Positions 4,240 through 23,301 of a DNA stretch of 24,000 nt are shown one piece after another (position 1 is the first letter of the stretch; the number at the start of each line of letters is the position of its first letter). The stretch is from the NCBI GenBank assembly GCA_031277795.1, contig JAITLQ010000015.1:193667-217666 (forward strand). Reading direction: 5' to 3'. The DNA is from Arthrobacter sp. (lineage in GTDB: Bacteria; Actinomycetota; Actinomycetes; Actinomycetales; Micrococcaceae). Under the pieces are notes generated by a model that was not told where the DNA came from, made no database searches, and was given only the letters and a program-made list of their open reading frames with translations. A program made the translations under genes and the position numbers.

Positions 4240-5151
4240 ATGAACACAAGCACAGCACCCGCCGTCGAGCTCACCGACCTGGTGAAGACCTTCAAGCGCG
4301 GCACCGTCCGCGCGGTGAACGGCGTTGACCTCACCATCCGGCGCGGCGAGATCGTGGCCTTCCTCGGCCCCAACGGGGCGGGCAAGACCACCACGATCGA
4401 CATGGCGCTGGGGCTCACGACCCCCACGAGCGGCACCGCCACCGTGTTCGGCGACAACCCCCGCAAGGCGGCCGCCAGCGGGCGCCTCTCCGCCGTGCTG
4501 CAGACCGGCGGCCTGCTACACGACGTCACGGTCCAGGAGATCGTCAACGTCACCGCCAACTTCCACTCGCTCCCCCGGGCACGCGTGGCCCAGGTGATGG
4601 AGGCAGCGGACCTCACCGAGCTGGCCCGCCGCAAGGTCGGCAAGTGCTCCGGCGGCGAGCAGCAACGCGTGAAGTTCGCGATGGCGATCCTCTCCGACCC
4701 GGATGTGCTGGTGCTGGACGAACCGACCGCAGGCATGGACGTCAACGCCCGCCGCCGCTTCTGGGACGTCATGCGCGCCGAAGCCGATGCCGGGCGCACC
4801 ATCCTCTTCGCCACGCACTACCTGGAGGAGGCGGAGCAGTTCGCCCGCCGCACCGTGGTGATGTCCCACGGAGAGGTTGTGGCCGACGCCCCGACGCAGG
4901 AGCTGCGCGCCTCGCTCGGGGGTCGCGTGCTGCACGCGAGCCTCCCGGCCGGTGCCCCCGATCAAGCGTGGGCCGCGCTCCAAAGCCTCCCGGGCGTCGT
5001 CGAGCCCTTCCGGGACGGCAACCGGGTCTCGGTGCGCAGCACTGACTCCGACGCCACGGCGCTGACCCTGCTGACCACCCTGGCCTGCACCGATCTGGAG
5101 ATCGTTGCCCCCACCCTCGAGACCGCCTTCGCGGCACTGACCCAGGACTGA
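4240..5151 (+). CDS. ABC transporter ATP-binding protein (ABC-2 / drug-exporter type)
   Basis: Walker A GPNGAGKTT, signature CSGGEQQR and Walker B VLVLDEPT are present, along with a H-loop region. Confidence 0.95.
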   Translation: MNTSTAPAVELTDLVKTFKRGTVRAVNGVDLTIRRGEIVAFLGPNGAGKTTTIDMALGLTTPTSGTATVFGDNPRKAAASGRLSAVLQTGGLLHDVTVQEIVNVTANFHSLPRARVAQVMEAADLTELARRKVGKCSGGEQQRVKFAMAILSDPDVLVLDEPTAGMDVNARRRFWDVMRAEADAGRTILFATHYLEEAEQFARRTVVMSHGEVVADAPTQELRASLGGRVLHASLPAGAPDQAWAALQSLPGVVEPFRDGNRVSVRSTDSDATALTLLTTLACTDLEIVAPTLETAFAALTQD

Positions 5152-5926: not shown

Positions 5927-7087
5927 ATGCGCATGGAGACGGAGCGAGCGGGAAGCAACGGGAGCGCGCTTCCCGTGGTGGGAGCGCAGCGAGCCGCCAG
6001 GCGGCGGGCCAAGGGGAACCCCAACCCCTGGGCCCGCTTCGCGTGGGTCATGGCCGCGGTGTGGCTGATCTTCCTGTACTACCCGATCGTGGCGATCCTC
6101 GCCTCCACGGCGGGGGAGGCCGCGCAGATCCTGGCCTGGGTGGGGCTGGGCGGCTTCGTGATCCTGTACCTGCTCATGTTCCGCCTCGGCCTGGATCAGG
6201 GAGTCGCAGGGGCGTGCGGGGTGCGCCCGCGGCAGTACGTGCTGCTGGGCGTCCTGGTCGCGGCGATCCTGGCGACGGTGCCGGCGATCGGCTTCGACGT
6301 GGCCGGCTTCTTCCCCTTCCTCGTCTCCGCGCTGGCCTACCAGTTCAGGAGGTGGCTGTACTGGTCCGTCAGCGTCATCACGGTCGCCGTGGTCCTGACG
6401 GCAATGTTCACGCAGCCGGACGGCGGCTCCTACGTGGCGCTGCTTGGCATCCTGGTGATCCTCATCCTCGTCAACTTCGTCTCCACGTGGCTCATCGCGC
6501 GCTCGGTCGACGCCGACCGGCTCAGCCTCGAACTGGCCACGAGCGAGGAGCGGGAGTCGGTGGCGCGCGACGTCCACGACCTGATCGGCCACTCCCTGAC
6601 GGTGGTGAAGCTCAAGGCGCAGTTGGCGCGTCGGCTCGTGGAGAGCGATCCGGAGCGGGCGCGGGCCGAGCTCGAGGACATCGAGCGCATTACCGGCGAG
6701 GCCATCCAGGGCGTGCGGGCCACGGTGACCGGCCTGCGTTCGGAGGGGCTGGCGGCGCAGCTGGAGTCGGCGCGGACCGCGCTCCAAGCGGCGGGCGTGC
6801 GGCTCGAGGTGCGCGGGGAGACCACCGCGCTCTCCCCGGCACAGTCGCTGCCGGCGGGATGGATCCTGCGCGAGGCCGTCACCAACGTGCTGCGCCACGC
6901 CAACGCGAGCGCCGTCACGGTGACGCTGAGGCCGGGGGAATTGGTCGTGGAGGACGACGGCGTGGGGCCAGGCGGGAAGGCCGGGAACGGGCAGCGCGGG
7001 ATGGCGGAGCGCGCCGCCGTCTCCGGGGGATCCTGCGCCGTGGGCGCCTCCTCGCTGGGCGGGACCAAGGTGGAGGTGACGTGGTGA
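5927..7087 (+). CDS. Sensor histidine kinase, HisKA_3 (DesK/LiaS/NarX-like) class
   Basis: Hydrophobic N-terminal segments are followed by the H-box ARDVHDLIGHSL and the ATPase motifs EAVTNVLRHA, VEDDGVG and GNGQRGMAERA. The start is set at ATG 5927, after the permease stop at 5910. Confidence 0.9.
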   Translation: MRMETERAGSNGSALPVVGAQRAARRRAKGNPNPWARFAWVMAAVWLIFLYYPIVAILASTAGEAAQILAWVGLGGFVILYLLMFRLGLDQGVAGACGVRPRQYVLLGVLVAAILATVPAIGFDVAGFFPFLVSALAYQFRRWLYWSVSVITVAVVLTAMFTQPDGGSYVALLGILVILILVNFVSTWLIARSVDADRLSLELATSEERESVARDVHDLIGHSLTVVKLKAQLARRLVESDPERARAELEDIERITGEAIQGVRATVTGLRSEGLAAQLESARTALQAAGVRLEVRGETTALSPAQSLPAGWILREAVTNVLRHANASAVTVTLRPGELVVEDDGVGPGGKAGNGQRGMAERAAVSGGSCAVGASSLGGTKVEVTW

Positions 7088-7111
7088 GGCGCGGGGCCGT
7101 CGCGATGCTGC

Positions 7112-7166
7112 CCACGCGGTTCGTTGACTTCCACGCGATGCGTGCGGGAGAGAACGAACCGCGTGG
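7112..7166 (+). other. 14-bp-stem hairpin in the unusual 145-bp kinase-regulator spacer
   Basis: CCACGCGGTTCGTT (7112-7125) is the reverse complement of AACGAACCGCGTGG (7153-7166). The 27-nt loop carries the palindrome CACGC-GAT-GCGTG (7132-7144). Confidence 0.6.
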
Positions 7167-7232
7167 CTTCGGCAGCAACGGGCTGGGCCCACATGGGCTG
7201 GGCGGGAACAAGAGCACTGACGGAGGTACACG

Positions 7233-7841
7233 GTGAGCATCAGGCTGGTCCTGGCGGACGACCAGGCACTCGTGCGCGGCGCGCTCGGTGCGCTGCTCGA
7301 GCTGGAGGGGGACCTCACGGTCGTGGGGGAGGCGCCCGACGGCGCCGGCGCCGTGGAGCGTGTGCGTGAGCTGCGCCCCGATGTGTGCCTCATGGACATC
7401 CAGATGCCGGGGATGGACGGGCTCGAGGCCACCCGCCTGGTGAAGGCGGCGAGCCCCGAGACCAAGGTGCTCATCGTGACCACGTTCGCCCGTCCGGGCT
7501 ACCTGCGGACGGCGCTCGAAGCTGGAGCGAGCGGCTTTGTGGTGAAGGACGCCCCGGCCGAGCAGCTCGCCGACGCCGTCCGCCGCGTGCACTCCGGGCT
7601 GCGCGTGGTGGATCCGGCGCTCGCCGAGGCCACGCTCTTCGAGGGCTCCAACCCGCTCACCGAGCGGGAGGCGCAGGTGCTCAAGCTGGCCCTGGACGGC
7701 CGCTCGGTCGCGGACATCGCCACGGAGGTTTTCCTCTCCGCCGGGACGGTGCGTAATCACCTCTCGAGTGCGATCGGAAAGACGGGCGCGCAGAACCGGG
7801 CGCAGGCCGCGCTCGCCGCGCGCGAGAAGGGCTGGATCTAG
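7233..7841 (+). CDS. Response regulator, NarL/LuxR family
   Basis: GTG at 7233 is preceded by GGAGG (7222-7226). The receiver motifs are LADDQ and CLMDIQMPGMDG. The C-terminal LuxR HTH reads LTEREAQVLKLALDGRSVADIATEVFLSAGTVRNHLSSAIGKTG. Confidence 0.95.
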   Translation: MSIRLVLADDQALVRGALGALLELEGDLTVVGEAPDGAGAVERVRELRPDVCLMDIQMPGMDGLEATRLVKAASPETKVLIVTTFARPGYLRTALEAGASGFVVKDAPAEQLADAVRRVHSGLRVVDPALAEATLFEGSNPLTEREAQVLKLALDGRSVADIATEVFLSAGTVRNHLSSAIGKTGAQNRAQAALAAREKGWI

Positions 7842-7890
7842 CCGACGTGCGCGGCGGCGGGTGCGCCCGGTACCGTGCGGTCGCTCGCGG

Positions 7891-9252
7891 CTACTCCTCC
7901 TCGAGTGCTAGTTCCGCCGGCTTCACGCGGAAGCCGCGTGTCGTGACGGCGAGCCACCCGGCGCCCAAGGCGAGCCAGGCGAGCCCCACCACGAGCGCCG
8001 GGAGCGACAGCGACGTCCACAGCCACACCGTCAGGGCGCAACCGATGCCGGGGAGCACTCCGTAGCGCAGCCCCGCGAGCGCCCCGCGGCGTTTCTCATC
8101 GATCAGGAAGTGCTTGATCACCGCGAGGTTCACGAGCGTGAACGCCGCGAGCGCGCCGAAGTTGATGAGGGAGGAAGCGAACGTCAGGTCGACGAACAGG
8201 GCGACGAGCGCCACGGCCGCGATGACCAGCGTTGACCCCACCGGCGTACCGAAGCGCGCCGAGAGCGTGCCGAACACGCGTCGCGGCAGCAGGCCGTCGC
8301 GGCCCATGGCAAAGAGCACCCGCGCGGCCGTGGCCTGCTGGGCCATGACGGCGCCGAAGCAACCGGCCACGAAAGCCGCGGTGAAGAAGGCGGTGAGCAG
8401 GTGCCCGCCGGCCGCCCCGACCACGTCGTTCGCCGCGGCATCGGGCGAGGTGTAGGCCCGCCAATCGGGGAACACCACCTGGCTGAGCCAGGACACCACG
8501 ATGAAGAGCACGCCGCCGCACAGCGTGACCAGCACGATCGCCCGTGGCACGGTGCGCGCCGGATCCTTGGTCTCCTCGGCGATCGAGGCCACGGCGTCGA
8601 AGCCGAGGAAGGAGTAGCAGAGCACGGCGGAACCGGCCAGGAGCGTGGCCACCCCGGTGTCCCCGGCGGGAACGGCGGCCACGGTGCCGCCCAACACGGG
8701 CTGGAGCGCCAGGAAGGCGAACACGACGAGGAAGACGACCTGCGCCGCGACGATGACATTGCTGACGCGGGAAAGCAGCTTCACGCCCGTCACGTTCAAC
8801 AGGGTGACGAGCACCAGCGCCGCCAGGATCCACACGGCCTGCGGCACGGCGGGCACCGCGGCGTGCAGGTACACGCCGATGACGAGGTAGGCCATCATCG
8901 GCAACAACACGTAGTCGAGCAGGATGGTCCAGCCGCCGAGGAAGCCGGCGTGGGCGCCGAAGGTCAGGCGCGTGTAGGAGTACGCGGCGCCCGCCTTCGG
9001 GTGGGCGCCGGCCATGGAGGCGTACGACGTCGCCGTGAACAGCATGGCCACGAGTGTCACCACGTACGCCAGGACGATCCGACCGTCCGTGAGCGTGTTG
9101 ACCACGCCGTAGGTCGTGAAGGAAGCCATGGGCATCATGTAGGCCAGGCCAAAGCCGAGCGCCCCGAGCAGGCCGCGCGAGCGGACGAGCGTGGGCCGCG
9201 CGGCAGCCGCGGTCGTGACCCCGCTCCCGGCCTGGCCCGTCGAGTTGCTCAT
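7891..9252 (-). CDS. APC-family amino acid/polyamine permease
   Basis: ATG at 9252 is preceded by AGGAGGTGG. The 453-aa polytopic protein contains ...AGAAYSYTRLTFGAHAGFLGGWTILLDYVLLP.... The track ORF 7891..10512 is over-extended through the upstream gene. Confidence 0.88.
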   Translation of the reverse strand: MSNSTGQAGSGVTTAAAARPTLVRSRGLLGALGFGLAYMMPMASFTTYGVVNTLTDGRIVLAYVVTLVAMLFTATSYASMAGAHPKAGAAYSYTRLTFGAHAGFLGGWTILLDYVLLPMMAYLVIGVYLHAAVPAVPQAVWILAALVLVTLLNVTGVKLLSRVSNVIVAAQVVFLVVFAFLALQPVLGGTVAAVPAGDTGVATLLAGSAVLCYSFLGFDAVASIAEETKDPARTVPRAIVLVTLCGGVLFIVVSWLSQVVFPDWRAYTSPDAAANDVVGAAGGHLLTAFFTAAFVAGCFGAVMAQQATAARVLFAMGRDGLLPRRVFGTLSARFGTPVGSTLVIAAVALVALFVDLTFASSLINFGALAAFTLVNLAVIKHFLIDEKRRGALAGLRYGVLPGIGCALTVWLWTSLSLPALVVGLAWLALGAGWLAVTTRGFRVKPAELALEEE

Positions 9253-10403
9253 GCTCCCACCTCCTGCATGGCGCGTTCCGAGTCGGCCCCGGCGCCGCCG
9301 AGCAGCCCCGAGTAGTCGAGGGCCACGCGCGGCGTCACGCACGGATTGCCCTCGGCGAGGTGCAGCACGCGCGCGGCCGGGTCGATCACCACGGACATGA
9401 TGGAGGCCCACTGCGAGGCCTCGGGCGAGCGCGGATCCGGGTGGCAGCAGATGGAACCGGGGGCATCGGTGTGATCGGTGAGCGCCTCGTGCAGCTCCGC
9501 CACGCCCACCACGGGATCGGCCTGCACCAACGATGTCAGCCGGCCCAGGCGCACATAGGAGTCGGACATCGCCACGGGCGCCAGGTCGGCGCCGCCGACC
9601 AGCGGCGAGACGAAGTGGTTCGTGTGGAACGTGGCCCCGCCGGATTCGATCACCGGGTGCACGCCCTCGGGCCCGCCCGGCTCCACCTCCACGTTGAGGA
9701 TCGCCCCGTTCTCGGTGCCGAGCACGTAATTGCCGGAGGAGGCGCGCCGGTGCCCGGCCAGCAGCTCCACGGCGTCGTACGCGTGCTCGCAATCGGCCAT
9801 GGCCCGCAGCATGACGTGGAACGGGACGCCGTCGGCGATCCCGTCCGCCGTGGTGACGAGCGTGTTGACGCAGAGCCCCAGCCCGGCCGCGTTGAGCATC
9901 GTCTTGCCGAGCAGACCGGCCTCCACGATGGTGACGTAGTTGGGCCCGTCCTCGCGCTCGACCTCCAGCAGGATCACCGAGTCGAAGGCGTGCACGAGCC
10001 AGTCCCAGTTCTGCCCGATCAGCGCGCGGTGCACCTCGGTGCGCTCGGGCGAGAGGGCAAAGGAACTGCACTCGCCCTTCGAGGAGCCGGCCCCGGCCGG
10101 GGTGTCGGTCAGCGCAGACCACAGGATCTCGGTGCGGCAGTTCATCGCCAGGACGTCGGCCACGGGCAGGCCGGAGCCCGCCGCGATGCCCTCGATCTCC
10201 CGCCAGATCGCGGGGAAGGCGGCGCGGATGGGCGCCTCGTGGCGCGCGGCGAGGCCCACGGCGTCGGCCCACGAGATGCCCTTGGCGGCGAAGCTCGCCT
10301 CGTAGCCGGCGCGGGCGGCGGCGATCTGCTCGGCCGCGAGGCGCCCGTACTGCTCGCCGCGCTCGCGCGGCGCGCCGGAGACGCGGATGCGGGGATACCC
10401 CAT
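9249..10403 (-). CDS. Peptidase C45 / acyl-CoA:6-aminopenicillanic-acid acyltransferase-like Ntn hydrolase
   Basis: Begins MGYPRIRVSG...RERGEQYG... A candidate autoproteolytic/nucleophile Cys sits at about residue 112 (SSKGECSSFAL), followed by IGQNWDW and a later GNYVLG. The stop overlaps the permease ATG (ATGA at 9249-9252). Confidence 0.75.
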   Translation of the reverse strand: MGYPRIRVSGAPRERGEQYGRLAAEQIAAARAGYEASFAAKGISWADAVGLAARHEAPIRAAFPAIWREIEGIAAGSGLPVADVLAMNCRTEILWSALTDTPAGAGSSKGECSSFALSPERTEVHRALIGQNWDWLVHAFDSVILLEVEREDGPNYVTIVEAGLLGKTMLNAAGLGLCVNTLVTTADGIADGVPFHVMLRAMADCEHAYDAVELLAGHRRASSGNYVLGTENGAILNVEVEPGGPEGVHPVIESGGATFHTNHFVSPLVGGADLAPVAMSDSYVRLGRLTSLVQADPVVGVAELHEALTDHTDAPGSICCHPDPRSPEASQWASIMSVVIDPAARVLHLAEGNPCVTPRVALDYSGLLGGAGADSERAMQEVGA

Positions 10404-11509
10404 CAGGCCCTCCCGAGGAGTCGCTGGATCGGGTCGAGGGACCAGACGCCCTCTTCGCCCGATGGCGTGGCCTCGTCTTCCGGCGCGGCTTCCGCTGGGC
10501 TGGGGGAGGCACTGCCCGACGGCGCGGGGCCGGCCTGGGCGCTCGCCTCGCCGCCCGCGGCGGCCGCGCTGGAAGCCGCCCGCACGTCGTCGAGCACCGA
10601 GGCCGGCAGGAAACCGGGCGCCTGCGCCCGTGGCAGCGTGCCCGTGAGCTCGCCCCGGGCGGCCAACGCGGCGACCTCGGCGGCGGTGCCGATCCAGGCG
10701 CCGGCGGCTTGCAGGTGCGTGATGACGCGCTCGATGAAGGCCAGGCGCGAGGGGCGGCCGGAGATCATGGGGTGGAAGGTGGTCATGACGTGGCCGCCGA
10801 GCGCGGCGATGCCGTCGATCTCGGGCTGCCAGACCTCCCAGACCTCGCGCGGGGAGCGGATGGTCTTGTCCCAGGTGTCGTTGGCGAACCAGAAGTGCGG
10901 GGCGTCGTCGAGGATCCACGAGACGGGCACCTCGGTGAGGGGATGGCTCTCGTGGCGGTACGGGCGGATGTCGTTGAGGAGATTGGAGCTGTACGTCAGG
11001 CCGGCCTCGGTGAGCAGGTCAAGGGTGTGGGCGCTGAAGTCCCACGAGGGGGAGCGGTAGCCCGTGACCTCGGCGCCGAGCGAGCGGAGCGTGTGCAGGC
11101 CCTGGTGCAGCTCGGCTTCCTCCTCCTCGCGCGTGAGGAGCGTGGGGGAGGTGTGCGAGTGGCCGTGGTGGGCCACCTCGTGGCCGGCGACCACGATGGC
11201 GCGGACCGCCTCCGGGTGGCGCAACGCGTCCTTGCCTGGAACGTAGAAGGTGGCCTTGACGCCCGTGCGCTCGAGCAGATCGAGGATCAAGGGGATGGCC
11301 ACGCGCGGGCCGTAGGCGCCCTGGGAGAGGACGCCGGGGCGGGAGGCGTTCTCGGGGTTCTCCCCGATCCAGACCTCTTCGGCGTCGAAGTCGAAGGACA
11401 GGGTGGCGCCGAAGGGGGCGCCTGTGGGCCAGGTGGGGGCGGTGAACGGGGTGGACAAGCTATCGCCTCGATCGGTGGCAAGTGAGTGGTCTACCTCACT
11501 ATGCGTCAC
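10403..11509 (-). CDS. Polysaccharide deacetylase (NodB-homology / CE4-like) family protein with an Ala/Pro/Ser/Glu-rich C-terminal tail
   Basis: Motifs LSFDFDAEE, VKATFYVPG, AGHEVAHHGHSH and GYRSPSWD are present. The start is uncertain: GTG 11509 as in the track, or a TTG 17 codons downstream with GAGG upstream. The stop overlaps the next ATG by 1 nt (TGATG at 10401-10405). Confidence 0.8.
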   Translation of the reverse strand: MTHSEVDHSLATDRGDSLSTPFTAPTWPTGAPFGATLSFDFDAEEVWIGENPENASRPGVLSQGAYGPRVAIPLILDLLERTGVKATFYVPGKDALRHPEAVRAIVVAGHEVAHHGHSHTSPTLLTREEEEAELHQGLHTLRSLGAEVTGYRSPSWDFSAHTLDLLTEAGLTYSSNLLNDIRPYRHESHPLTEVPVSWILDDAPHFWFANDTWDKTIRSPREVWEVWQPEIDGIAALGGHVMTTFHPMISGRPSRLAFIERVITHLQAAGAWIGTAAEVAALAARGELTGTLPRAQAPGFLPASVLDDVRAASSAAAAGGEASAQAGPAPSGSASPSPAEAAPEDEATPSGEEGVWSLDPIQRLLGRA

Positions 11510-11529
11510 CGGTGGGCGGGATCACAAGT

Positions 11530-11571
11530 GCAATGCGTTGCTTCTGTGTGAAATATCCACGCGTTGCGTGG
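11530..11571. promoter_or_regulatory. Bipartite conserved cis-element GCAATGCGTTGCT-N14-CCACGCGTTGCGTGG (copy 1)
   Basis: Located in the 72-bp gap between the Lrp/AsnC gene and the deacetylase operon. Both boxes recur with the same 14-nt spacing at 23261-23301 on the opposite strand. Confidence 0.55.
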
Positions 11572-11581
11572 TGTGTGGCGG

Positions 11582-12058
11582 CTAGTCCTGCGCGTCGACG
11601 ACGTGTTCGATCGGCGTGCCGTAGCGCAGGTGGTGCACCTTGAGAACGTGCACCGACTCGGTGTCCTGGATGCCGGGGATGCGCTCGATGGTGCCGCGCA
11701 TGAGCTCGTAGAGGTGCTCGGTGTTGCGCGTGTGGATCTCTGCGCAGAGGTCGAAGCGGCCCATGACGGTGGAGAGGTAGGTGATCTCGGGGATCTCAAG
11801 GAGCGCCGCGATGACCTCGTCGTGGCGCGCCGGTTCCACCTTGAGGTTGGTCAGGGTGAGCTGCGTGTTGGTCTCGCGCGGATCGGTGAAGGCCACGATG
11901 CGCAGGATGCCGGCGTCCTGCAGGCGCTTCACGCGCGTGCGCACGGTGGCCTCCGAGGTGCCCACGGTGCGGCCGATCTCGCGGAACGCGCGGCGCCCGT
12001 CCTCCTCGAGCTGGGCAATGATCGCGCGATCGAGGTCATCTAGGTGCAGTTCGGCCAT
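11582..12058 (-). CDS. Lrp/AsnC family transcriptional regulator
   Basis: The N-terminal HTH is LDDLDRAIIAQLEEDGRRAFREIGRTVGTSEATVRTRVKRLQDAGIL, followed by a C-terminal RAM/AsnC-type ligand domain. The product is 158 aa. Confidence 0.92.
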   Translation of the reverse strand: MAELHLDDLDRAIIAQLEEDGRRAFREIGRTVGTSEATVRTRVKRLQDAGILRIVAFTDPRETNTQLTLTNLKVEPARHDEVIAALLEIPEITYLSTVMGRFDLCAEIHTRNTEHLYELMRGTIERIPGIQDTESVHVLKVHHLRYGTPIEHVVDAQD

Positions 12059-12090
12059 GGCTGCGAGTCTATCCAGCAGCGTGGCGTGTT

Positions 12091-12110
12091 TTGTCTACAA
12101 GGGTAGACAA
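12091..12110. promoter_or_regulatory. Perfect 8-4-8 palindrome TTGTCTAC-AAGG-GTAGACAA in the divergent promoter region
   Basis: Read directly from the sequence. It lies 33 bp upstream of the Lrp ATG (minus strand) and 84 bp upstream of the PHP-pair start. Confidence 0.5.
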
Positions 12111-12136
12111 TTGATCCGCGTGTCGGTAGCTTCGCC

Positions 12137-12161
12137 GTGGAGGGCGCTTCCCGCCCTCCAC
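12137..12161 (+). other. 10-bp GC-rich stem-loop in the presumed 5' leader of the PHP pair
   Basis: GTGGAGGGCG (12137-12146) is the reverse complement of CGCCCTCCAC (12152-12161), with a 5-nt loop. It ends 32 nt before the GTG start. Confidence 0.5.
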
Positions 12162-12193
12162 CCGCCACCGCCCGTGCACACCGGAGGAATACC

Positions 12194-13240
12194 GTGCCCC
12201 CACTTGCGACCGTCAGCGGCGCCCTCGACCCGGCCCTCGTGCGCGGCGCCACCAGCGCCGGAGACCACCTCATCGGCGCGCTGCCCGCCACCCCGGGCGA
12301 GCGCGCCACGGACGTCTACTTCTTCGAGGCCCCGCTGACCCTCGAACGGCTCGGCGACGCCATGCTCGGCCGCGCCAACCGCGAGGACGCCACGCTCACG
12401 CCGGACACCGCGGCCGCCGAGCTCGAGGACTTTGCCGAGGCCGGCGGCGTGCTTGCCGTGGAGCTCACCCCGCTCGCGGCCGGGGCTGATCTCGCGGCGC
12501 TCGCCGGGGTCGAGGCGGCCAGCGGCGTGCGCATCGTGGCCTCCGCGCATGCCGGCGAGGGGCCGCTGGCGCTGCGGCTCGGGCCCGGTCGCGCTGGGGT
12601 GATCGTGCTGGGCCCGGCGGCCGAGCCCGCCGCCCGCGAGGAGGCGCTTGGCCTCGCCGCGCGCGGCGTTCCCGTGATGCTCGACGCCGCGTGGCTGGGT
12701 GGGGCCGAAACCTCACCGGGGCCGGTCGCCGGGGCGGGCGACCCCGTGCACGACGCCAGCGCCGCGGCGGGCGGAGCGGGCCGCGGCGCCGGTGCCGCCG
12801 CTGTCGCCCCGGCGCCGCTCGGTGCGCTGCACGAGCTGCTCGACACCGCGGAGGCGGCCGGGGTGCCCGCCGACCGCCTCGCCGTGCTCGGCGCCCGTTC
12901 CCTCGCCCACCGCCCCGACGCGCTGTCCGAGCTGGCGGCGCGAGGCGTCTACCTTCACTTCGGCTCGCTGGGCCGCATCCCTTCCGTGTACACCGAGGTG
13001 AGCGATCACGACGTCGCCGTGTCGCTCGCCGCGCTCACCGAGGCCGGCCACGGGGAGCGGTTGTTGCTCGCCGCCGGCCTGGATCGCCGCCACGCCCTGC
13101 GCGCCCACGGCGGACACGGGCTGGGCTTCCTGCCCCGTCAATTCCTTCCCTATCTCGGCTTCATGGGCATCGGCGCCGACGCGGCCGGTGTCCTCGCCTC
13201 CGACAACCTCGTCCGCTTCCTGGATTGGAGCCGCCCGTGA
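12194..13240 (+). CDS. Phosphotriesterase-homology (PHP/PTE, amidohydrolase superfamily) paralog with degenerate metal-binding residues
   Basis: GTG at 12194 is preceded by GGAGGA (12183-12188). The N-terminus LATVSGALDPALVRGATSAGDHLIG aligns with the family pattern TV.G.I....LG.T..HEH, but HEH has become GDH. The C-terminal region GHGLGFLPRQFLPYLGFMGI...NLVRFL parallels the downstream paralog. Confidence 0.7.
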   Translation: MPPLATVSGALDPALVRGATSAGDHLIGALPATPGERATDVYFFEAPLTLERLGDAMLGRANREDATLTPDTAAAELEDFAEAGGVLAVELTPLAAGADLAALAGVEAASGVRIVASAHAGEGPLALRLGPGRAGVIVLGPAAEPAAREEALGLAARGVPVMLDAAWLGGAETSPGPVAGAGDPVHDASAAAGGAGRGAGAAAVAPAPLGALHELLDTAEAAGVPADRLAVLGARSLAHRPDALSELAARGVYLHFGSLGRIPSVYTEVSDHDVAVSLAALTEAGHGERLLLAAGLDRRHALRAHGGHGLGFLPRQFLPYLGFMGIGADAAGVLASDNLVRFLDWSRP

Positions 13241-14385
13241 GCTCGCCCGCCGCCCCCGCGCCCCACGCCGTCGTGCCCTCCTCTCCGGCGGCGGCGCCGG
13301 CACCCGCGGTCACGACTGCCCCGGCGGGCGCCGTGCCCAACCTGGCCGGGCGCGTCCTCACGGTGGCCGGCCCGGTGGAGCCGGCCGCGCTGGGGCAGGT
13401 CTCGATGCACGAGCACGTCTTCCTCGACATCGTGCGTCCGGCCCACAACCCGCGCCCCGGCTACGACGCTCCGGCCGCGAGAGAACCGCTGGGCCTGCAG
13501 AACCTCGCCGCCGTGCGCGCCGGCGCGGCGCTCTACGCCAACGACCGGCTGGGCGACCCGGCGCTCATGGCACGCGAGGTCGGCGCCTTCCGCGACGCCG
13601 GCGGCGGCGCGCTGGTTGAGCTCTCCAACCTGGGCCTCGGGCGCGACGCGGAGGCGCTGCTGGGGCTCTACCGGACCACCGGGCTGCACGTGGTCATGGG
13701 CGCCGGCTGGTACGAGCGCGAGTTCCACCCAGCCGACATGGATCAGCGCAGCGTCGAGGAGCTGACGGGGATCATCGTCCGCGACATCGTCGAGGGCGTG
13801 GACGGCACGGGGATCCGCGCCGGGATCATCGGCGAGGTGGGCGTGGACGGGAATCCGCTGACCGCCAACGAGCTGAAGTCGGTGCGGGCCTCGGGCCGGG
13901 CCGCGCGGATCACGGGCGCGCCCATCAGCTTCCACCGCGGCGGCGCGGGGGAGGAGCAACACCGGGTGCTCGACGTCCTCGAGGAGGAGGGCGCCGACCT
14001 TTCGCGCGTGGTCATGGGGCACGCGGGCACCGTGGGGCACGACCTCGCGTTTGCGCGCCGGCTCCTGGCGCGCGGCGTGAGCGTGGAGTTCGACTTCCTG
14101 GGCACCACGGGCTCACCGTGGGGCACGCTCTTCCCCTTCACCGATCGCACCGTGGCGCGCGGCATCCTGAACCTCGTGGAGGACGGGCACGCCGGGCGGA
14201 TCGTGCTGGGCCACGATGTGTGCCAGGCGATCCAGCTCGCGGCCTTCGGCGGGCACGGCTACGGCTATCTGCACCGGCACTTCCTGCCGGAGCTCGTGCG
14301 CATGGGCCTGGACCCGGCGCTGCTGCGGACGTTCCTCGTGGAGAATCCGGCCCGCTTGCTGACGTTCGGGGCGCCTAGGCCATGA
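13237..14385 (+). CDS. Phosphotriesterase-homology protein (PHP/PTE family hydrolase), apparently catalytically intact
   Basis: GTG at 13237 overlaps the upstream stop (GTGA). After a Pro/Ala-rich leader of about 35 aa come LTVAGPVEPAALGQVSMHEHVF, GIIGEVG, ISFHRG, VVMGHAG and VLGHDV, the full ligand set as in E. coli PHP-type proteins. The 3' end overlaps the convergent gene by 11 nt. Confidence 0.85.
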   Translation: MSSPAAPAPHAVVPSSPAAAPAPAVTTAPAGAVPNLAGRVLTVAGPVEPAALGQVSMHEHVFLDIVRPAHNPRPGYDAPAAREPLGLQNLAAVRAGAALYANDRLGDPALMAREVGAFRDAGGGALVELSNLGLGRDAEALLGLYRTTGLHVVMGAGWYEREFHPADMDQRSVEELTGIIVRDIVEGVDGTGIRAGIIGEVGVDGNPLTANELKSVRASGRAARITGAPISFHRGGAGEEQHRVLDVLEEEGADLSRVVMGHAGTVGHDLAFARRLLARGVSVEFDFLGTTGSPWGTLFPFTDRTVARGILNLVEDGHAGRIVLGHDVCQAIQLAAFGGHGYGYLHRHFLPELVRMGLDPALLRTFLVENPARLLTFGAPRP

Positions 14386-15247
14386 GCTCTTCGGCCGTCC
14401 GGAGCATCTCGTCGATGGAGCCCTCGGGGTCGGTAATGGGGGCCTGCGCGGCGCGGATGATCCCGGCGTCGTCAACGAGGAGCGAGACGCGCTTGTAGCG
14501 TTCAAGCCCGCCGACCCTGAAGACGGGCAGGCGCAGGGCCACGGCGAGCTCGGCGTCGGCGTCGGAGAGCAAGGGGTAGTTCAGGCCGGCGTGCTCGGCG
14601 AAGCGCGCCTGCTGCTCGCTGCGCTGAGTGCTGATGCCGAAGACGCGCACCCCCTGGGCGCGCAGGGCCGGTTCCGCCTCCGCGTAGCTCGTCGCCTCGA
14701 CCGTGCATCCGGCCGTTCCCTCGATGCCGCTCCAGCCGGCGGGGTAGCCGTCCTCGGCGGGGGCGAAGGCTCCGGGAAAGAGGAAGAGGACGCTCCAGGC
14801 GCCCGGCTCGCTCAGGCTGTACCGGGCGCCGTCGTGGCCTTGAAGGCTCAGGGTGGGCACCTTGGTGCCCACGAGCGCTGCGGTGCGCTGTGCCTCGGCG
14901 TCCGTGGGGTGCGCGGTGAGCGTGCCGTCGCCGGCCACGAAGCGGTCCCCCCATTCCTGTAGGGCCAGGAGGACGGGCAGGGAGGCGCGGCCCATGGCGG
15001 TGAGGTCGTACTCGTAGCGCGGCGGGTGCTCTTGGTAGGCGCGGCGCTGGAGGATCCCGTCGGCCTGGAGCGAGGCGAGGGTCTCGGTGAGGGCGCGGCG
15101 GGAGATGCCGAGCGCCTTGGTGATCGCGTCGAAGCGCGTGGTGCCTGCCGCGATTTCGCGCAGGATGAGGAAGCCCCAGCCGTCGCCGAGCACGCCGAGG
15201 GCCTGGGCGATGCCGCAATCGCTGCCGCGCAGTTCGCTCGTGCGCAT
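14375..15247 (-). CDS. Fusion protein: N-terminal HxlR-type winged-helix regulator plus C-terminal Bcp/AhpC-TSA-like peroxiredoxin (redoxin) domain
   Basis: ATG at 15247 is preceded by GAAGGAG. The HxlR signature is DCGIAQALGVLGDGWGFLILREI...TRFDAI...GISRRALTETLASLQADGILQR...YEYDLT. The Prx signature is WSVLFLFPGAF...GTAGCTVEA...VRVFGISTQRSEQQARFAEHAGLNYPLLSD...RVSLLVD. Confidence 0.8.
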   Translation of the reverse strand: MRTSELRGSDCGIAQALGVLGDGWGFLILREIAAGTTRFDAITKALGISRRALTETLASLQADGILQRRAYQEHPPRYEYDLTAMGRASLPVLLALQEWGDRFVAGDGTLTAHPTDAEAQRTAALVGTKVPTLSLQGHDGARYSLSEPGAWSVLFLFPGAFAPAEDGYPAGWSGIEGTAGCTVEATSYAEAEPALRAQGVRVFGISTQRSEQQARFAEHAGLNYPLLSDADAELAVALRLPVFRVGGLERYKRVSLLVDDAGIIRAAQAPITDPEGSIDEMLRTAEELMA

Positions 15248-15263
15248 GGACGCTCCTTCGTTT

Positions 15264-15309
15264 TTGGCGTGGCTTCTCTCCGAGTCTATAGTCAGTTCCA
15301 AATTGGAAC
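15264..15309 (+). promoter_or_regulatory. Candidate MFS promoter (TTGGCG-17nt-TATAGT) followed immediately by the 7-1-7 palindrome GTTCCAA-A-TTGGAAC
   Basis: The -35-like TTGGCG is at 15264-15269, the -10-like TATAGT at 15287-15292, and the perfect palindrome at 15295-15309. All lie in the 79-bp divergent gap between the HxlR-Prx and MFS genes. Confidence 0.5.
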
Positions 15310-15326
15310 CCACTAACGAGGTGCGC

Positions 15327-16715
15327 ATGAGCCAGAACGGACAACCCGGGCTGCAGGACAACGGAATCGCGAACCCCTCTGAAGACTCAACGGACAACCC
15401 CATTGAAGGGGAGCGCGGCGGGTCAGCGGGCCCCGGCCCGGCCCAGCTCGGCCCGGACCAGCTCGGCCCGGCCCAGCGCTTCCGGCGCTACTGGACCTCG
15501 CGCACGGCGGGCTCGCTCGCCGCTTCGGTGACCTCGGTGTCGCTCTCGCTGCTGGCCGTGGTGCAGTTGCAGGCCGACGCTTCGCTCGTGGGGGTCGTGG
15601 CCGCCGCACAGGACGCCGCCTGGCTGCTGCTCTCCCTGCCCATCGGTGCCGTGCTGCACCGCCTGCCGATGCGGGCCCTCCAGATCGCGGTGGACCTGGC
15701 CAGGGCCGGGATCGCGCTGGCGCTCGTCGCGGCCGCCGTGGGCGGGCTGCTCGGCCTGCCCCAGCTGTTGCTCTCCGCGGCGCTCCTGGGCGTCGCCGCC
15801 GTGATCTTCGACCTCGCCAACCAGTCCTACCTGCCGCGGATCGTCCCCGCCGAGGAGCTGCAGCGCCGCAACTCAACGATCTCGGCGACCGACGCCGTCA
15901 CCACGATGGGCGGCGGCGGCCTCGCGGGGTTCCTGGCCCAGGCGGTTGGTGCCGCGGGGGCGCTGCTCGTCTCCGCCGTGGGTTCCGTCGTCTCGGCGCT
16001 GGCGCTGCGCTCGCTGCCGGCAGGACGGCAGGCGGGCGGCCAGGAGGGAGAGTCGGCGGGCGCCGCGGGCGCCGAGCCCGCACCACGCGAGCCGATGCTC
16101 GCCGCCATCGCCACGGGCTGGCGCTACGTCATGGGCCACCGGGTGCTGCGTCCCGCCACGCTCTCTGTCACGGTGCTCAACTTCCTCTGCGGCGCCCAGC
16201 TCACGCTCTTCCCGCTCTTCCTGGTCCGCGAGCTCCGCCTGCCCGTGGGCTGGGTGGGCCTGCTCCTCGCCTCGGACGGCGTGGGCTCGCTGATCGGCGC
16301 GGTCCTCGCCACGCGCGTCGCGGCTCGGTGGGGCACGGCGAGGGCCAGCGTCATCGCCACATGTGTGGTGGTGGTCGGTGCGGCGGTCATCCCGCTCGGG
16401 GCGGCGTACGGCGCGGCGATCGGCGCCGCGTTTTTCCTGGCCGGCAATGTGCTCTTCGCCGGGGGCGTGGTGATCATCAGCATCGTGACGCGCACCTACC
16501 GCATGCGAACCACGCCGGAGGAGCTGCTGCCGCGCGTCATCTCTACGGTGCGCTTCGTCTCCTGGGGCGGCATCCCGATCGGGTCGCTCCTGGCCGGCGT
16601 GGCCGCCTCGGCCTGGGGCACGACGGTGTCCCTGTGGGCGTGCGCCGCGATCGCCCTCGGCGGGCCGGCCCTTCTGCTGGCCGCGCGCGCCTTCAGGGTG
16701 CGCGAGCTGGGCTGA
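15327..16715 (+). CDS. MFS transporter (EntS/MFS_3-like exporter type) with a low-complexity N-terminal extension
   Basis: ATG at 15327 is preceded by GAGG. The 462-aa protein has about 12 hydrophobic segments and includes FRRYWTSRTAGSLA.... The track ORF from 15087 is over-extended. Confidence 0.85.
   Translation: MSQNGQPGLQDNGIANPSEDSTDNPIEGERGGSAGPGPAQLGPDQLGPAQRFRRYWTSRTAGSLAASVTSVSLSLLAVVQLQADASLVGVVAAAQDAAWLLLSLPIGAVLHRLPMRALQIAVDLARAGIALALVAAAVGGLLGLPQLLLSAALLGVAAVIFDLANQSYLPRIVPAEELQRRNSTISATDAVTTMGGGGLAGFLAQAVGAAGALLVSAVGSVVSALALRSLPAGRQAGGQEGESAGAAGAEPAPREPMLAAIATGWRYVMGHRVLRPATLSVTVLNFLCGAQLTLFPLFLVRELRLPVGWVGLLLASDGVGSLIGAVLATRVAARWGTARASVIATCVVVVGAAVIPLGAAYGAAIGAAFFLAGNVLFAGGVVIISIVTRTYRMRTTPEELLPRVISTVRFVSWGGIPIGSLLAGVAASAWGTTVSLWACAAIALGGPALLLAARAFRVRELG
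15434..15478 (+). repeat. In-frame 15-bp tandem repeat x3 inside the MFS N-terminus
   Basis: The units are CGGCCCGGCCCAGCT / CGGCCCGGACCAGCT / CGGCCCGGCCCAGCG, encoding GPAQL-GPDQL-GPAQR. Confidence 0.9.
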
Positions 16716-16754
16716 TCCCTGGCGGCGGGGCGGGAGGGCGGTTAGCTTGGGGGC

Positions 16755-17618
16755 ATGCTTCCAGCCCACGAACCCACCCTGCGCGGCGAGGGTGTGGTGC
16801 TTCGGCGCCACACGCACGACGATGCGGCGCTCGTCCGCGCCGCCGGCGCGGACGCGTACATCACCTCGGTGACGACGGTGCCCCCGGCACCGGCGAGCGA
16901 CGCCGAGGTGGTCGCTTACATCGCCAGGCAGCACTCGCGGCTGCCAGCGGGCCAGGGCGTGCAGCTCGTCATCGAGGATCAGGCGTCGGGCGTGGCCGTG
17001 GGGCAGATTGGGCTCATGGTCAAGGGTGTCCACCGGGCCGCGATCGGCTACTGGGTGGACCCCGGCGCGCGGCGGCGGGGCTACGCGGGGCGGGCCGCGA
17101 GGGTCCTCAGCGCGTGGGCGCTCGGCCTGCCCGGGCTACACCGGCTCGAGGCGAGCGTTGAACCGTGGAACGAGGGCTCGATGCGCGCCGTCGAGTCAGC
17201 TGGTTTCGTCCGGGAGGGCGTGGCGGCCAACTGGGAGCTCGTCGCCGGCGAGCCCAGGGACATGGTCATCTACGCGAAGGTCCCGGACGGGCACCGCGGC
17301 TGGGAAGCTCAGGCGCGGGAGTTCCAGACCGGCATGCCGCTGACCGAATGGAACGAAGCGGACCGAGAGGGGCGACTCACCTTGCAGTTGTGGGCGGTGG
17401 GGAGCGGGGAAGACGCCCTCCTTCGCCTGGCCCGCGGGGAGGAGCTCACCGACGCGGATCTCCTGTACCTAGCCTGGCTCAATTCGCTCGCCATCGAGAC
17501 CGGCTACCGCCCGCCGTGTGCCATCACCCCCGGCGGCGCGCGGATCGACGATGTGGCGCAGGAGATCCTTCTCAAGCGCTTCGGCCCCACCGGCACCCAC
17601 GTGCCGGGCGTCGACTGA
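16755..17618 (+). CDS. GNAT family N-acetyltransferase (RimJ/RimL-like) with an uncharacterised C-terminal extension of about 110 aa
   Basis: The GNAT core is LRGEGVVLRRHTHDD...IGYWVDPGARRRGYAGRAARVLSAWAL...HRLEASVEPWNEGSMRAVESAGFVREG. The reading frame then continues for about 110 residues with no family I recognise. Confidence 0.85.
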   Translation: MLPAHEPTLRGEGVVLRRHTHDDAALVRAAGADAYITSVTTVPPAPASDAEVVAYIARQHSRLPAGQGVQLVIEDQASGVAVGQIGLMVKGVHRAAIGYWVDPGARRRGYAGRAARVLSAWALGLPGLHRLEASVEPWNEGSMRAVESAGFVREGVAANWELVAGEPRDMVIYAKVPDGHRGWEAQAREFQTGMPLTEWNEADREGRLTLQLWAVGSGEDALLRLARGEELTDADLLYLAWLNSLAIETGYRPPCAITPGGARIDDVAQEILLKRFGPTGTHVPGVD

Positions 17619-17622
17619 CCCA

Positions 17623-23249: not shown

Positions 23250-23301
23250 ACGCTAACAGTCACGCAATGCGTGGCGCAAGTCTCTTCCAGCAACGCATTG
23301 C
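23250..23301 (-). promoter_or_regulatory. Bipartite conserved cis-element (copy 2) overlapping a candidate promoter of the APC-permease operon
   Basis: The minus strand reads GCAATGCGTTGCT (23301-23289), N14, CCACGCATTGCGTG (23274-23261). A possible -35 TTGCGC (23279-23274) and -10 TAGCGT (23255-23250) place the CACGC-N3-GCGTG palindrome inside an 18-nt spacer. Confidence 0.45.

What the first reader, a model, noticed from the sequence alone, without database searches (positions are those of the whole stretch)
7891..14385. Lrp/AsnC-centred divergent locus combining three different hydrolase families with an APC importer: an uncharacterised uptake/catabolic module
Seen in sequence:
- On the minus strand, an Lrp/AsnC regulator is followed by a NodB-type deacetylase, a C45 Ntn-hydrolase (AAT-like, Cys at about 112) and an APC permease.
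- The last three genes are joined by stop/start overlaps (TGATG at 10401-10405, ATGA at 9249-9252), implying co-translation and a single functional unit.
- Divergently, two PHP/phosphotriesterase-family genes are also overlap-coupled (GTGA at 13237-13240).

Established knowledge:
- CE4/NodB enzymes remove N- or O-acyl groups.
- C45/AAT-like Ntn hydrolases cleave or transfer acyl-amide bonds.
- PHP/PTE-like enzymes hydrolyse lactones and esters.
- Most bacterial members of all three families have no known substrate.

Inference:
- The set looks like import plus stepwise de-acylation and ring opening of a modified amino compound, such as an N-acylated amino acid, lactone or lactam.
- The Lrp-type regulator probably senses an amino-acid-like product.
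- I do not recognise this gene combination as a described pathway.
Basis: partly seen in the sequence, partly recalled or inferred. Interest (0 to 1): 0.6.

Follow-up and report, generated by a model that had tools for sequence, protein, structure and literature searches.

The report
Orphan amide-hydrolase island, three joined modules
The six genes are real, but they are three separately inherited units parked side by side on an accessory island; only the deacetylase / C45-hydrolase pair (sometimes with the permease) is a widely conserved, still uncharacterised module for taking up and breaking down an unknown small nitrogen compound.

Summary
Observation confirmed: all six genes, family assignments, Cys112 and the three stop/start overlaps are as stated.

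Interpretation partly supported. The locus is a composite of three units.

1. CE4->C45 is an old, translationally coupled pair. CE4 lies within 6 kb of C45 in 54 of 80 loci from several phyla. An APC1 orthologue follows it in five genomes, including a transposase-flanked Streptomyces module. Its usual regulator, a LuxR-PBP6 fusion, is absent from this genome.
2. The Lrp belongs to a second operon outside the finding: APC2-VOC-SDR-Rieske-reductase, 17865-23168. Its orthologues sit beside that operon in four other genomes, even where CE4-C45 is on another contig. A bipartite ACGCA-W-TGCGT element occurs only twice in the 3.6 Mb genome, upstream of both permease operons, so CE4-C45-APC1 appears rewired into that regulon.
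3. The PTE pair is a rare unit of its own: an intact PTER/Rsp3690-like hydrolase plus a ligand-less pseudoenzyme. It carries its own palindrome, shared with a TetR/OMT-like/hydrolase locus elsewhere in this genome.

Window 7842-16735 is missing from a same-genus genome. The substrate is unknown and no paper describes the combination. The scan has noted CE4-C45 cores on other DNA before. Moderately interesting orphan pathway.

The parts
7891..9252 (-). APC1: APC-superfamily amino-acid/amine permease, last gene of operon A
   Evidence: AA_permease_2 at 122 bits; nearest NCBIfam models are 2A0306/BcaP, far below cut-off. Orthologues at 55-66% identity follow C45 in A. ginkgonis, A. hankyongi, G474 and Streptomyces. 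Absent from the same-genus MAG L001.
9249..10403 (-). C45-family Cys N-terminal-nucleophile amidohydrolase/acyltransferase proenzyme
   Evidence: NF040521 at 267 bits, AAT at 67 bits. Best solved relative is isopenicillin-N acyltransferase 2x1c at 64 bits. E111-C112 is invariant. 326 related stretches found in species-representative genomes.
10403..11509 (-). CE4/NodB-fold metal-dependent deacylase, first gene of operon A (start possibly TTG 11458; the C-terminal ~80 aa form a lineage-specific low-complexity tail)
   Evidence: Polysacc_deac_1 at 66 bits. Best structure is 3rxz (function unknown) at 182 bits, then HpPgdA 3qbu; PuuE only 49 bits. D40, D42, H115, H119, R152, P154, D201, D202 and H246 are invariant in 38 orthologues. 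Lies within 6 kb of C45 in 54 of 80 loci, on the same strand in 53.
11530..11570 (.). Bipartite operator copy 1 (GCAATGCGTTGC-N17-CACGCGTTGCGTG; core palindrome ACGCA-W-TGCGT) between the Lrp stop and the CE4 start
   Evidence: The bipartite pattern occurs exactly twice in the 3.6 Mb genome. Two boxes occupy the same position in L001.
11582..12058 (-). Lrp/AsnC-family regulator, orthologous to the Lrp that accompanies operon B in other genomes
   Evidence: HTH_AsnC-type plus AsnC_trans_reg. The orthologue group shares 46-91% identity, against 31-37% to this genome's own paralogues. It lies next to operon B in L110, L109, L008 and L115.
12093..12108 (.). GTCTAC-N4-GTAGAC palindrome upstream of the PTE pair (probable TetR-type operator)
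   Evidence: The same palindrome lies upstream of the PTE unit in L001, L103, L101 and L107. In this genome it also lies at C15:48485 and C15:50484, flanking TetR, OMT-like and alpha/beta-hydrolase genes.
12194..13240 (+). PTEa: PTE-fold paralogue without metal ligands (pseudoenzyme partner)
   Evidence: Only the C-terminal third matches PTE (33 bits). Five of the six ligand positions are lost in all five known relatives. Only five relatives were found in the word-filtered search of 5.8 billion proteins.
13237..14385 (+). PTEb: intact binuclear-metal hydrolase of the Rsp3690/PTER clade of the PTE family
   Evidence: PTE at 216 bits. 3k2g at 215 bits, 9efa at 187 bits. H58, H60, E200, H233, H262, D327 and Y159 align with the PTER ligands and oxyanion Tyr named in PMC12873775.
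17865..23168 (-). Operon B (outside the finding): APC2 21522-23168, VOC 20892-21512, SDR 20119-20895, VanA-type Rieske oxygenase 18938-20056, VanB/GbcB-type reductase 17865-18932
   Evidence: Pfam and NCBIfam. Nearest solved Rieske oxygenases are SxtT/SxtDIOX and NdmA/B. Contiguous with Lrp and CE4-C45 in Paeniglutamicibacter, A. ginkgonis and Leucobacter cx-42. Divergent to the PTE pair in L103 and L104.
23261..23301 (.). Bipartite operator copy 2, upstream of operon B
   Evidence: A homologous box next to a conserved TGTTA..TCAYCAC element lies upstream of APC2 in L002, L004, L103 and L115.
7842..16735 (.). Accessory segment (APC1, C45, CE4, Lrp, PTEa, PTEb, HxlR-peroxiredoxin, MFS) absent from same-genus genome G366
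   Evidence: In G366 the response-regulator stop is followed after 54 bp by the GNAT start.

Best explanation
The locus is a mosaic of three separately inherited units on a strain-variable island, not one Lrp-centred six-gene pathway.

Unit 1, CE4-C45-APC1 (operon A), is a self-contained uptake-and-hydrolysis module.
- The APC permease imports a small amino or amide compound (inferred).
- A metal-dependent CE4 enzyme removes or opens one acyl/amide bond. Its catalytic residues are shown to be intact; the reaction is inferred.
- The Cys-Ntn C45 enzyme hydrolyses a second amide bond. The nucleophile is shown; the reaction is inferred.
- The most likely order is de-N-acylation by CE4, exposing a free amine, followed by cleavage of the resulting aminoacyl-type amide by C45.

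Elsewhere this pair works together with SDR and VOC enzymes, and often with an ATP-dependent HyuA/B lactamase-type pair. It is usually governed by a LuxR-PBP6 one-component sensor.

In this genus that sensor is missing. Operon A instead carries the ACGCA-W-TGCGT boxes of operon B (APC2-VOC-SDR-Rieske oxygenase-reductase). The Lrp, which is operon B's evolutionary partner, therefore probably co-regulates both permease operons (inferred).

The PTE pair is an independent unit: a PTER/Rsp3690-like amidohydrolase or esterase with a catalytically dead paralogue, probably forming a heterodimer. It belongs to a dispersed TetR-type regulon marked by GTCTAC-N4-GTAGAC.

All units plausibly act on related N-acylated or N-methylated amines, omega-amino acids or cyclic amides. 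The actual substrate is unknown.
For: Gene calls, families and junctions.

CE4-C45 pair:
- CE4 lies within 6 kb of C45 in 54 of 80 loci (53 on the same strand). The loci include Chloroflexi, Dormibacterota, Verrucomicrobiia and Thermoleophilia MAGs.
- 1- or 4-nt CE4/C45 overlaps are seen in L109, L110, L112 and L119.
- An APC1 orthologue follows C45 in four other genomes. One is a transposase-flanked LuxR_PBP6 | CE4-C45-APC module in Streptomyces.
- SDR-VOC-CE4-C45 form one operon on the S. cadmiisoli plasmid. An SDR lies near C45 in 47 of 80 loci and a VOC in 11 of 80.
- Recurrent HyuA/HyuB, LLM and Amidohydro_3 neighbours.

Lrp and operon B:
- The Lrp orthologue group sits beside operon B in four other genomes. 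In G525, CE4-C45 is on a different contig with LuxR_PBP6 and no Lrp.
- All 4 Rieske-positive genomes among 251 of the family are among the 7 C45-positive ones.
- The bipartite operator occurs only twice in the genome, upstream of operons A and B. It is conserved upstream of operon B in other genomes, and upstream of CE4 only in this genus.
- This genome has no LuxR_PBP6 and no HyuAB.

PTE unit:
- Contexts, palindrome and TetR/OMT-like/hydrolase orthology.
- Active sites.

Island.
Against:
- The regulator-to-operator assignments (Lrp to ACGCA-W-TGCGT; TetR to GTCTAC-N4-GTAGAC) rest on comparative genomics only. The boxes are GC-rich, unlike classical AT-rich Lrp sites.
- The GTCTAC palindrome lies in the Lrp-PTE intergenic region, so Lrp could still act on the PTE pair.
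- The three units do co-occur pairwise: CE4-C45 with operon B in four genomes, PTE with operon B in L103, and all three here. A shared pathway is therefore not excluded.
- The SDR matches are to a very large family at a median 35% identity.
- The order of the two hydrolytic steps is a guess.
- The same-genus MAG lacks APC1, so the permease is dispensable for the pair.
Confidence: 0.6

Rival explanations
1. First reader's reading. All six genes form one Lrp-controlled pathway: import, stepwise de-acylation (CE4, then C45) and ring opening or ester hydrolysis (PTE) of a single modified amino compound.
For: - All six genes lie on one 8.9-kb accessory segment.
- They keep the same order in the same-genus MAG L001.
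- The units are linked pairwise through operon B in other genomes.
- PTEb's relative PTER is itself a de-N-acetylase, so the chemistry is compatible.
Against: - The PTE pair is near C45 in 1 of 80 loci. In a Leucobacter MAG the two are 74 kb apart.
- The PTE unit has a different operator, shared with a TetR/OMT-like/hydrolase locus.
- The Lrp is partnered with operon B, not with CE4-C45 or the PTE pair.
Confidence: 0.2
2. Cyclic-amide variant. CE4 is a ring-opening amidohydrolase acting on a hydantoin, imide or lactam, as PuuE allantoinase, the imidase BpIH and the hydantoin-opening DdaH do. C45 then hydrolyses the linear ureido or amide product.
For: - CE4-fold enzymes are known to open cyclic amides (PMC11424739, PMC12927932).
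- HyuA/HyuB, closest to caprolactamase CapA/B though below cut-off, are frequent neighbours of CE4-C45.
- Operon B's Rieske oxygenase is nearest to NdmA/B and SxtT, which act on N-heterocycles.
Against: - P0003 keeps the Asp-His-His metal triad that PuuE and the imidases have replaced by Glu-His-Trp.
- It scores only 49 bits against PuuE, compared with 182 bits against 3rxz.
- No Paenarthrobacter plasmid (the home of ddaH1) appears among the 30 best of 298 plasmid matches.
- This genome has no HyuAB.
Confidence: 0.25
3. Chance neighbourhood. Apart from the CE4-C45(-APC1) operon, the genes are unrelated accessory cargo gathered at an integration hot spot between the response-regulator and GNAT genes.
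For: - The site is variable within the genus: empty in G366, and holding 2.3 kb of other DNA in G310.
- An unrelated HxlR-peroxiredoxin gene and an MFS gene share the segment.
- The PTE pair occurs elsewhere without CE4-C45.
Against: - The operator shared by operons A and B is unique in the genome.
- Rieske and C45 co-occur in 4 of 4 Rieske-positive genomes.
- Adjacency of the units recurs in other genera.
Confidence: 0.15

Closest known systems
Acyl-CoA:isopenicillin-N acyltransferase (IAT, MEROPS C45; PDB 2x1c) and Drosophila Tan (beta-alanyl-amine hydrolase; from my own knowledge)
   Same: Same family by profile (NF040521 at 267 bits). The invariant Cys aligns with the self-processing nucleophile. 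Both known members cleave an amide whose acyl part carries a free amino group.
   Different: Only about 64 bits to IAT. The residue before the Cys is Glu, not Gly. The context is bacterial and catabolic, with a permease. No substrate is known.
CE4 proteins 3rxz (structural-genomics entry, function unknown) and H. pylori HpPgdA (3qbu); more distantly PuuE allantoinase, the imidase BpIH and the hydantoin-opening DdaH
   Same: NodB fold, cytoplasmic, small-molecule context. Catalytic Asp, the Asp-His-His triad and the catalytic His are all conserved.
   Different: Not the metal-independent PuuE/imidase type (Glu-His-Trp). No polysaccharide context and no signal peptide noted. Always paired with a C45 gene.
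PTER (animal N-acetyltaurine / N-acetyl-beta-alanine amidohydrolase) and Rsp3690 of Rhodobacter sphaeroides (3k2g)
   Same: PTEb shares the Glu-bridged binuclear site (H, H, E, H, H, D) and the oxyanion Tyr. Scores are 187 and 215 bits.
   Different: PTER's sulfonate-binding Arg209, Arg238 and Tyr268 align with Gly, Thr and Trp, and His305 aligns with Cys. PTEb is encoded with an obligate-looking ligand-less paralogue, which is not reported for PTER.
ATP-dependent lactamase/hydantoinase clusters (caprolactamase CapAB; N-methylhydantoinase HyuAB)
   Same: In many genomes CE4-C45 sits in one operon with HyuA/HyuB, SDRs and amidohydrolases.
   Different: This genome has no HyuA/HyuB. The HyuAB neighbours score below the CapA/B cut-offs.
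Rieske N-demethylase / quaternary-amine oxygenase systems (NdmA/B with NdmD; GbcAB; CntAB)
   Same: Operon B has a VanA-type Rieske oxygenase, a GbcB/VanB-like reductase and an amine-type APC permease.
   Different: No equivalog model is reached. It is accompanied by VOC, SDR and Lrp genes and linked to CE4-C45.

Membership tests
MEROPS C45 / NF040521 C45_proenzyme | Profile match above the curated cut-off over the whole length | tested here: met
   267 bits against a cut-off of 85, covering residues 9-346 of 384.
MEROPS C45 / NF040521 C45_proenzyme | Conserved Cys that becomes the N-terminal nucleophile after self-cleavage | tested here: met
   C112 is invariant in 16 orthologues and sits in the motif GEC(S/T)xF. 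In the alignment it falls in the stretch of IAT 2x1c that holds the processing site.
MEROPS C45 / NF040521 C45_proenzyme | Autoproteolytic maturation actually occurs | not testable with these tools
   Needs purified protein and mass spectrometry.
CE4 / NodB metal-dependent deacetylases (PF01522) | Profile match above cut-off | tested here: met
   65.8 bits against a cut-off of 23.1.
CE4 / NodB metal-dependent deacetylases (PF01522) | Catalytic Asp plus the Asp-His-His metal triad, the Arg-x-Pro motif and the catalytic His | tested here: met
   D40/D42, H115/H119, R152/P154, D201/D202 and H246 are invariant in 38 orthologues.
PuuE allantoinase / cyclic imidase subgroup of the CE4 fold | Glu-His-Trp in place of Asp-His-His (metal independence) | tested here: not met
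   P0003 keeps Asp-His-His (definition from PMC11424739). TIGR03212 scores 53 bits against a cut-off of 425.
Phosphotriesterase family PF02126 (PHP/PTER type), gene b | Six ligands of the binuclear metal site (HxH, bridging Glu or Lys, His, His, Asp) | tested here: met
   H58, H60, E200, H233, H262 and D327. The bridging residue is Glu, as in PHP and PTER, not the carbamylated Lys of PTE and PLL lactonases.
Phosphotriesterase family PF02126, gene a | Six ligands of the binuclear metal site | tested here: not met
   Only one His of the HxH motif is kept, and only in some orthologues. The Glu, both His and the Asp are replaced in all five relatives. The fold is retained but the protein is not an enzyme of this type.
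PTER-type N-acetyltaurine hydrolase | Sulfonate-binding Arg209, Arg238 and Tyr268 and proton donor His305 (PMC12873775) | tested here: not met
   These align with G236, T265, W295 and C329 of PTEb (read by hand).
PTE-like lactonases (PLL; AHL quorum quenching) | Carbamylated Lys bridging the metals (from my own knowledge) | tested here: not met
   The bridging position is Glu200 in all PTEb orthologues.
Lrp/AsnC (FFRP) regulators | N-terminal AsnC-type HTH plus C-terminal RAM/AsnC ligand domain | tested here: met
   PF13404 at 58.5 bits and PF01037 at 57.8 bits.
APC superfamily permeases | AA_permease_2 profile over about 12 transmembrane segments | tested here: met
   121.7 bits over residues 46-422. 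No equivalog cut-off is reached.
HyuA/HyuB-dependent lactam or hydantoin catabolic clusters | Presence of the ATP-dependent HyuA/HyuB pair | tested here: not met
   No orthologue in this genome.

The most novel reading that the evidence does not exclude
The translationally coupled CE4-C45 pair defines a widespread but unstudied two-step amidohydrolase pathway for a natural small nitrogen compound. It was found as 326 stretches in species-representative genomes of several phyla. Lineages extend it with plug-in modules: an ATP-dependent HyuAB ring-opener, a Rieske N-demethylase-type oxygenase with VOC and SDR, or a PTER-like hydrolase/pseudoenzyme heterodimer. In this genus, three such modules were brought together on one island. 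After losing its LuxR-PBP6 sensor, the CE4-C45 operon was rewired under the Lrp of the oxygenase operon by gaining that operon's operator.
Probability: 0.35. Interest if true: 0.6.

Novelty: new variant of a known kind. Interest (0 to 1): 0.45.

Why it matters
Bacterial C45 Ntn-hydrolases, and cytoplasmic CE4 enzymes of the 3rxz/HpPgdA type, have essentially no known substrates. Showing that they form an obligate-looking, cross-phylum gene pair gives a concrete handle for assigning both families a function. The pair comes with defined transporters and, in Streptomyces, exists as a minimal mobile four-gene module.

The locus also offers a natural example of regulatory rewiring: a cognate sensor is lost and another operon's operator is gained. 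In addition, it shows a bacterial PTER-like enzyme with a conserved dead paralogue.

The island is present in some strains of the genus and absent from others, so comparative growth tests are straightforward.

Tried and rejected
- **PuuE/imidase/DdaH-type ring opening for the CE4.** Rejected as a membership claim because the Asp-His-His triad is kept. No Paenarthrobacter plasmid is among the 30 best plasmid matches. It is kept as a rival mechanism.
- **AHL quorum quenching (lactonase plus acylase).** PTEb has Glu, not the carbamylated Lys of PLL lactonases, and APC import is not needed for AHLs. Rejected.
- **Ectoine (Doe) pathway**, prompted by the Lrp-aminotransferase-aldehyde dehydrogenase string in A. 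ginkgonis. No DoeA/DoeB-type genes are present, and the dehydrogenase is of the aminobutyraldehyde subfamily. Rejected.
- **HyuAB elsewhere in this genome.** Not found.
- **Literature.** Searches for C45 together with hydantoinase, polysaccharide deacetylase or luciferase-like monooxygenase found no paper describing the combination.
- **Other features.** Rfam gave no match and the terminator/promoter scan gave nothing above the shuffle background.
- **Input errors.** Searches were my own input errors and gave no data.

Full report
**1. Observation**

The window has about 72% G+C, so I placed genes by third-position GC. Six coding segments fill 7891-14385:
- APC permease, 7891-9252 (-)
- C45 proenzyme, 9249-10403 (-)
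- CE4/NodB-like protein, 10403-11509 (-)
- Lrp/AsnC regulator, 11582-12058 (-)
- two PTE-family genes, 12194-13240 and 13237-14385 (+)

The overlaps ATGA (9249-9252), TGATG (10401-10405) and GTGA (13237-13240) read exactly as stated. The CE4 start may be TTG 11458, which has a GAGG 7 nt upstream and fits the N-terminus of the closest structure.

**2. Active sites**

- **C45.** C112 sits in an invariant GEC(S/T)xF motif. The best solved relative is isopenicillin-N acyltransferase.
- **CE4.** It keeps the full catalytic set of a metal-dependent CE4 enzyme, invariant in 38 orthologues: D40/D42, H115/H119, R152/P154, D201/D202 and H246. It is therefore not of the PuuE/imidase type, which has Glu-His-Trp instead. 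Its closest structures are 3rxz, of unknown function, and HpPgdA.
- **PTEb.** It keeps H58, H60, E200, H233, H262, D327 and Y159. These align with the ligands and the oxyanion Tyr of PTER. Its nearest structures are Rsp3690 (215 bits) and PTER (187 bits). PTER is an N-acetyltaurine / N-acetyl-beta-alanine amidohydrolase (PMC11374699, PMC13311154). PTER's sulfonate-binding residues are not kept in PTEb.
- **PTEa.** It and all its relatives lack the ligands.

**3. Is the six-gene set conserved?**

I collected 80 genomic loci around C45 orthologues; 326 related stretches exist among species-representative genomes. Counts of genes lying within 6 kb of C45:

| Gene | Loci out of 80 |
|---|---|
| CE4 | 54 (53 on the same strand) |
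| SDR | 47 |
| VOC | 11 |
| Lrp | 3 |
| APC1 | 2 |
| PTEb | 1 (the same-genus MAG L001) |

CE4/C45 overlaps of 1 or 4 nt recur in other genomes.

Recurrent larger arrangements:
- Liv-type ABC, CE4, SDR, C45, LLM, HyuA, HyuB, Amidohydro_3
- HyuA, HyuB, CE4, C45 (Leucobacter)
- PotD-type ABC, SDR, VOC, CE4, C45 (S. cadmiisoli plasmid)

A LuxR-HTH fused to a Peripla_BP_6 domain is the usual neighbouring regulator.

**4. The permease**

APC1 orthologues (55-66% identity) follow C45 in A. ginkgonis, A. hankyongi, G474 and a Streptomyces strain. In the Streptomyces strain, LuxR_PBP6 | CE4-C45-APC is flanked by transposases. Regulator, two hydrolases and permease therefore look like a sufficient, mobile module. 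The same-genus MAG lacks APC1.

**5. The Lrp and a second operon**

Outside the finding lies operon B at 17865-23168: APC2, VOC, SDR, a VanA-type Rieske oxygenase and a VanB/GbcB-type reductase.
- In Paeniglutamicibacter the order is operon B, Lrp, LuxR_PBP6, CE4-C45.
- In A. ginkgonis and Leucobacter cx-42, operon B diverges from Lrp...CE4-C45.
- In G525, operon B ends with the Lrp on one contig, while LuxR_PBP6-CE4-C45 lies on another contig without an Lrp.
- These Lrps form one orthologue group at 46-91% identity, against 31-37% to this genome's own paralogues.
- Among 251 genomes of the family, 7 carry the C45 orthologue and 4 carry the Rieske orthologue. All 4 of the latter are among the 7. 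Related genomes are not independent, but three genera are involved.

**6. Operators**

GCAATGCGTTGC-N17-CACGC-N3-GCGTG (core palindrome ACGCA-W-TGCGT) occurs exactly twice in the 3.6 Mb genome, at 11530-11570 and 23261-23301. These positions are upstream of operon A and operon B. The box is conserved upstream of operon B in L002, L004, L103 and L115. Upstream of CE4 it is found only in this genus. This genome has no LuxR_PBP6. I infer that operon A was rewired into operon B's regulon, most simply under the Lrp.

**7. The PTE pair**

- PTEa has only five relatives in the word-filtered search of 5.8 billion proteins. It has none in 300 sampled genomes of the order.
- In wastewater contigs L103 and L104 the pair diverges from an APC2-VOC-SDR string. 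Identities there are 84% for APC2, 73% for VOC and 77% for PTEb.
- In Leucobacter it is part of alpha/beta-hydrolase | OMT-like, PTEa, PTEb | TetR. There it lies 74 kb from CE4-C45.
- A (G)TCTAC-N4-GTAGA(C) palindrome precedes the unit in every context.
- In this genome the same palindrome also flanks the orthologous TetR, OMT-like and hydrolase genes at C15:48.5-51.4 kb.

The PTE pair therefore belongs to a dispersed TetR-type regulon.

**8. Island**

In same-genus genome G366 the response-regulator stop is followed after 54 bp by the GNAT start. Window 7842-16735 is therefore an accessory segment, and operon B is absent from G366 as well. Four of five other genomes of the genus lack the C45 orthologue.

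**9. Function**

Shown:
- intact catalytic machinery in CE4, C45 and PTEb
- a dead PTEa
- conserved coupling of CE4 and C45
- a shared operator for operons A and B

Inferred:
- import by APC1
- CE4 de-acylation followed by C45 amide cleavage
- Lrp control of both permease operons

Substrate hints point to N-acylated or N-methylated amines, omega-amino acids or cyclic amides:
- PotD-type, Liv-type and APC transporters
- an omega-aminotransferase plus an aminobutyraldehyde-dehydrogenase-subfamily enzyme after the Lrp in A. ginkgonis
- an APAH-like deacetylase and amine oxidases as neighbours
- caprolactamase-like HyuAB
- the PTER relationship of PTEb
- a Rieske oxygenase nearest to NdmA/B and SxtT

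None of these identifies the compound.

**10. Comparison, novelty and limits**

No paper describing the combination was found. Earlier notes of this scan report CE4-C45 cores on other DNA, which agrees with section 3. Every family here is known. What is new is the conserved pairing and the modular, rewired assembly.

ORF calling in the 80 loci was crude. The regulator-to-operator assignments are comparative inferences.

Noticed in passing
window 14375-15403 (-): HxlR-type HTH fused to an AhpC/TSA-Redoxin domain. Its stop overlaps the PTEb stop convergently by 11 nt (14375-14385). It lies on the same accessory segment but is unrelated by family.
   Followed up: no
window 10403-10650 (-), residues ~290-368 of the CE4 protein: An Ala/Ser/Pro/Glu-rich tail of about 80 aa shows no conservation in 37 orthologues. 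It is a lineage-specific extension of unknown role.
   Followed up: partly
window 11458 vs 11509: The CE4 gene more likely starts at TTG 11458 (GAGG 7 nt upstream; matches the N-terminus of 3rxz) than at GTG 11509. That would widen the Lrp-CE4 gap to about 123 bp.
   Followed up: partly
own genome C15:48485-51360 (L122): TetR (TetR_C_6 type), an OMT-like protein and an alpha/beta hydrolase are flanked by two GTCTAC-N4-GTAGAC palindromes. They are orthologous to the genes contiguous with the PTE pair in Leucobacter.
   Followed up: yes
own genome C4:91680 and 91717 (L123): Two GTCTAC-N3-GTAGAC palindromes 37 bp apart lie between genes with no Pfam match. The spacing differs from the PTE-type site.
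   Followed up: partly
own genome C10:453592-455426: A second Lrp paralogue (35% identical) lies next to an orthologue (66%) of the omega-aminotransferase that follows the Lrp in A. ginkgonis.
   Followed up: no
own genome C13:83274-84383 and C10:259004-260014: Two distant C45 paralogues (31% and 27% identity) exist in this genome. Their contexts were not examined.
   Followed up: no
L111 (Streptomyces sp., GCA_042262305.1) 6028-18012: The LuxR_PBP6 | CE4-C45-APC module lies between two rve_3-type transposase genes, near a phage-integrase-like gene. This suggests recent horizontal transfer.
   Followed up: partly
L108 (A. hankyongi) 3289-4398: A Hist_deacetyl (acetylpolyamine-amidohydrolase-like) gene sits in the divergent ABC-transporter operon next to CE4-SDR-C45-SDR-APC-HyuA-HyuB-DAO-Cupin_3.
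   Followed up: no
window 7088-7232 and 17623-17725: A CACGC-N3-GCGTG site in the kinase/regulator spacer and a long palindromic element after the GNAT gene were reported in earlier notes. CACGC-N3-GCGTG alone occurs 102 times in the genome, so on its own it is not specific.
   Followed up: partly
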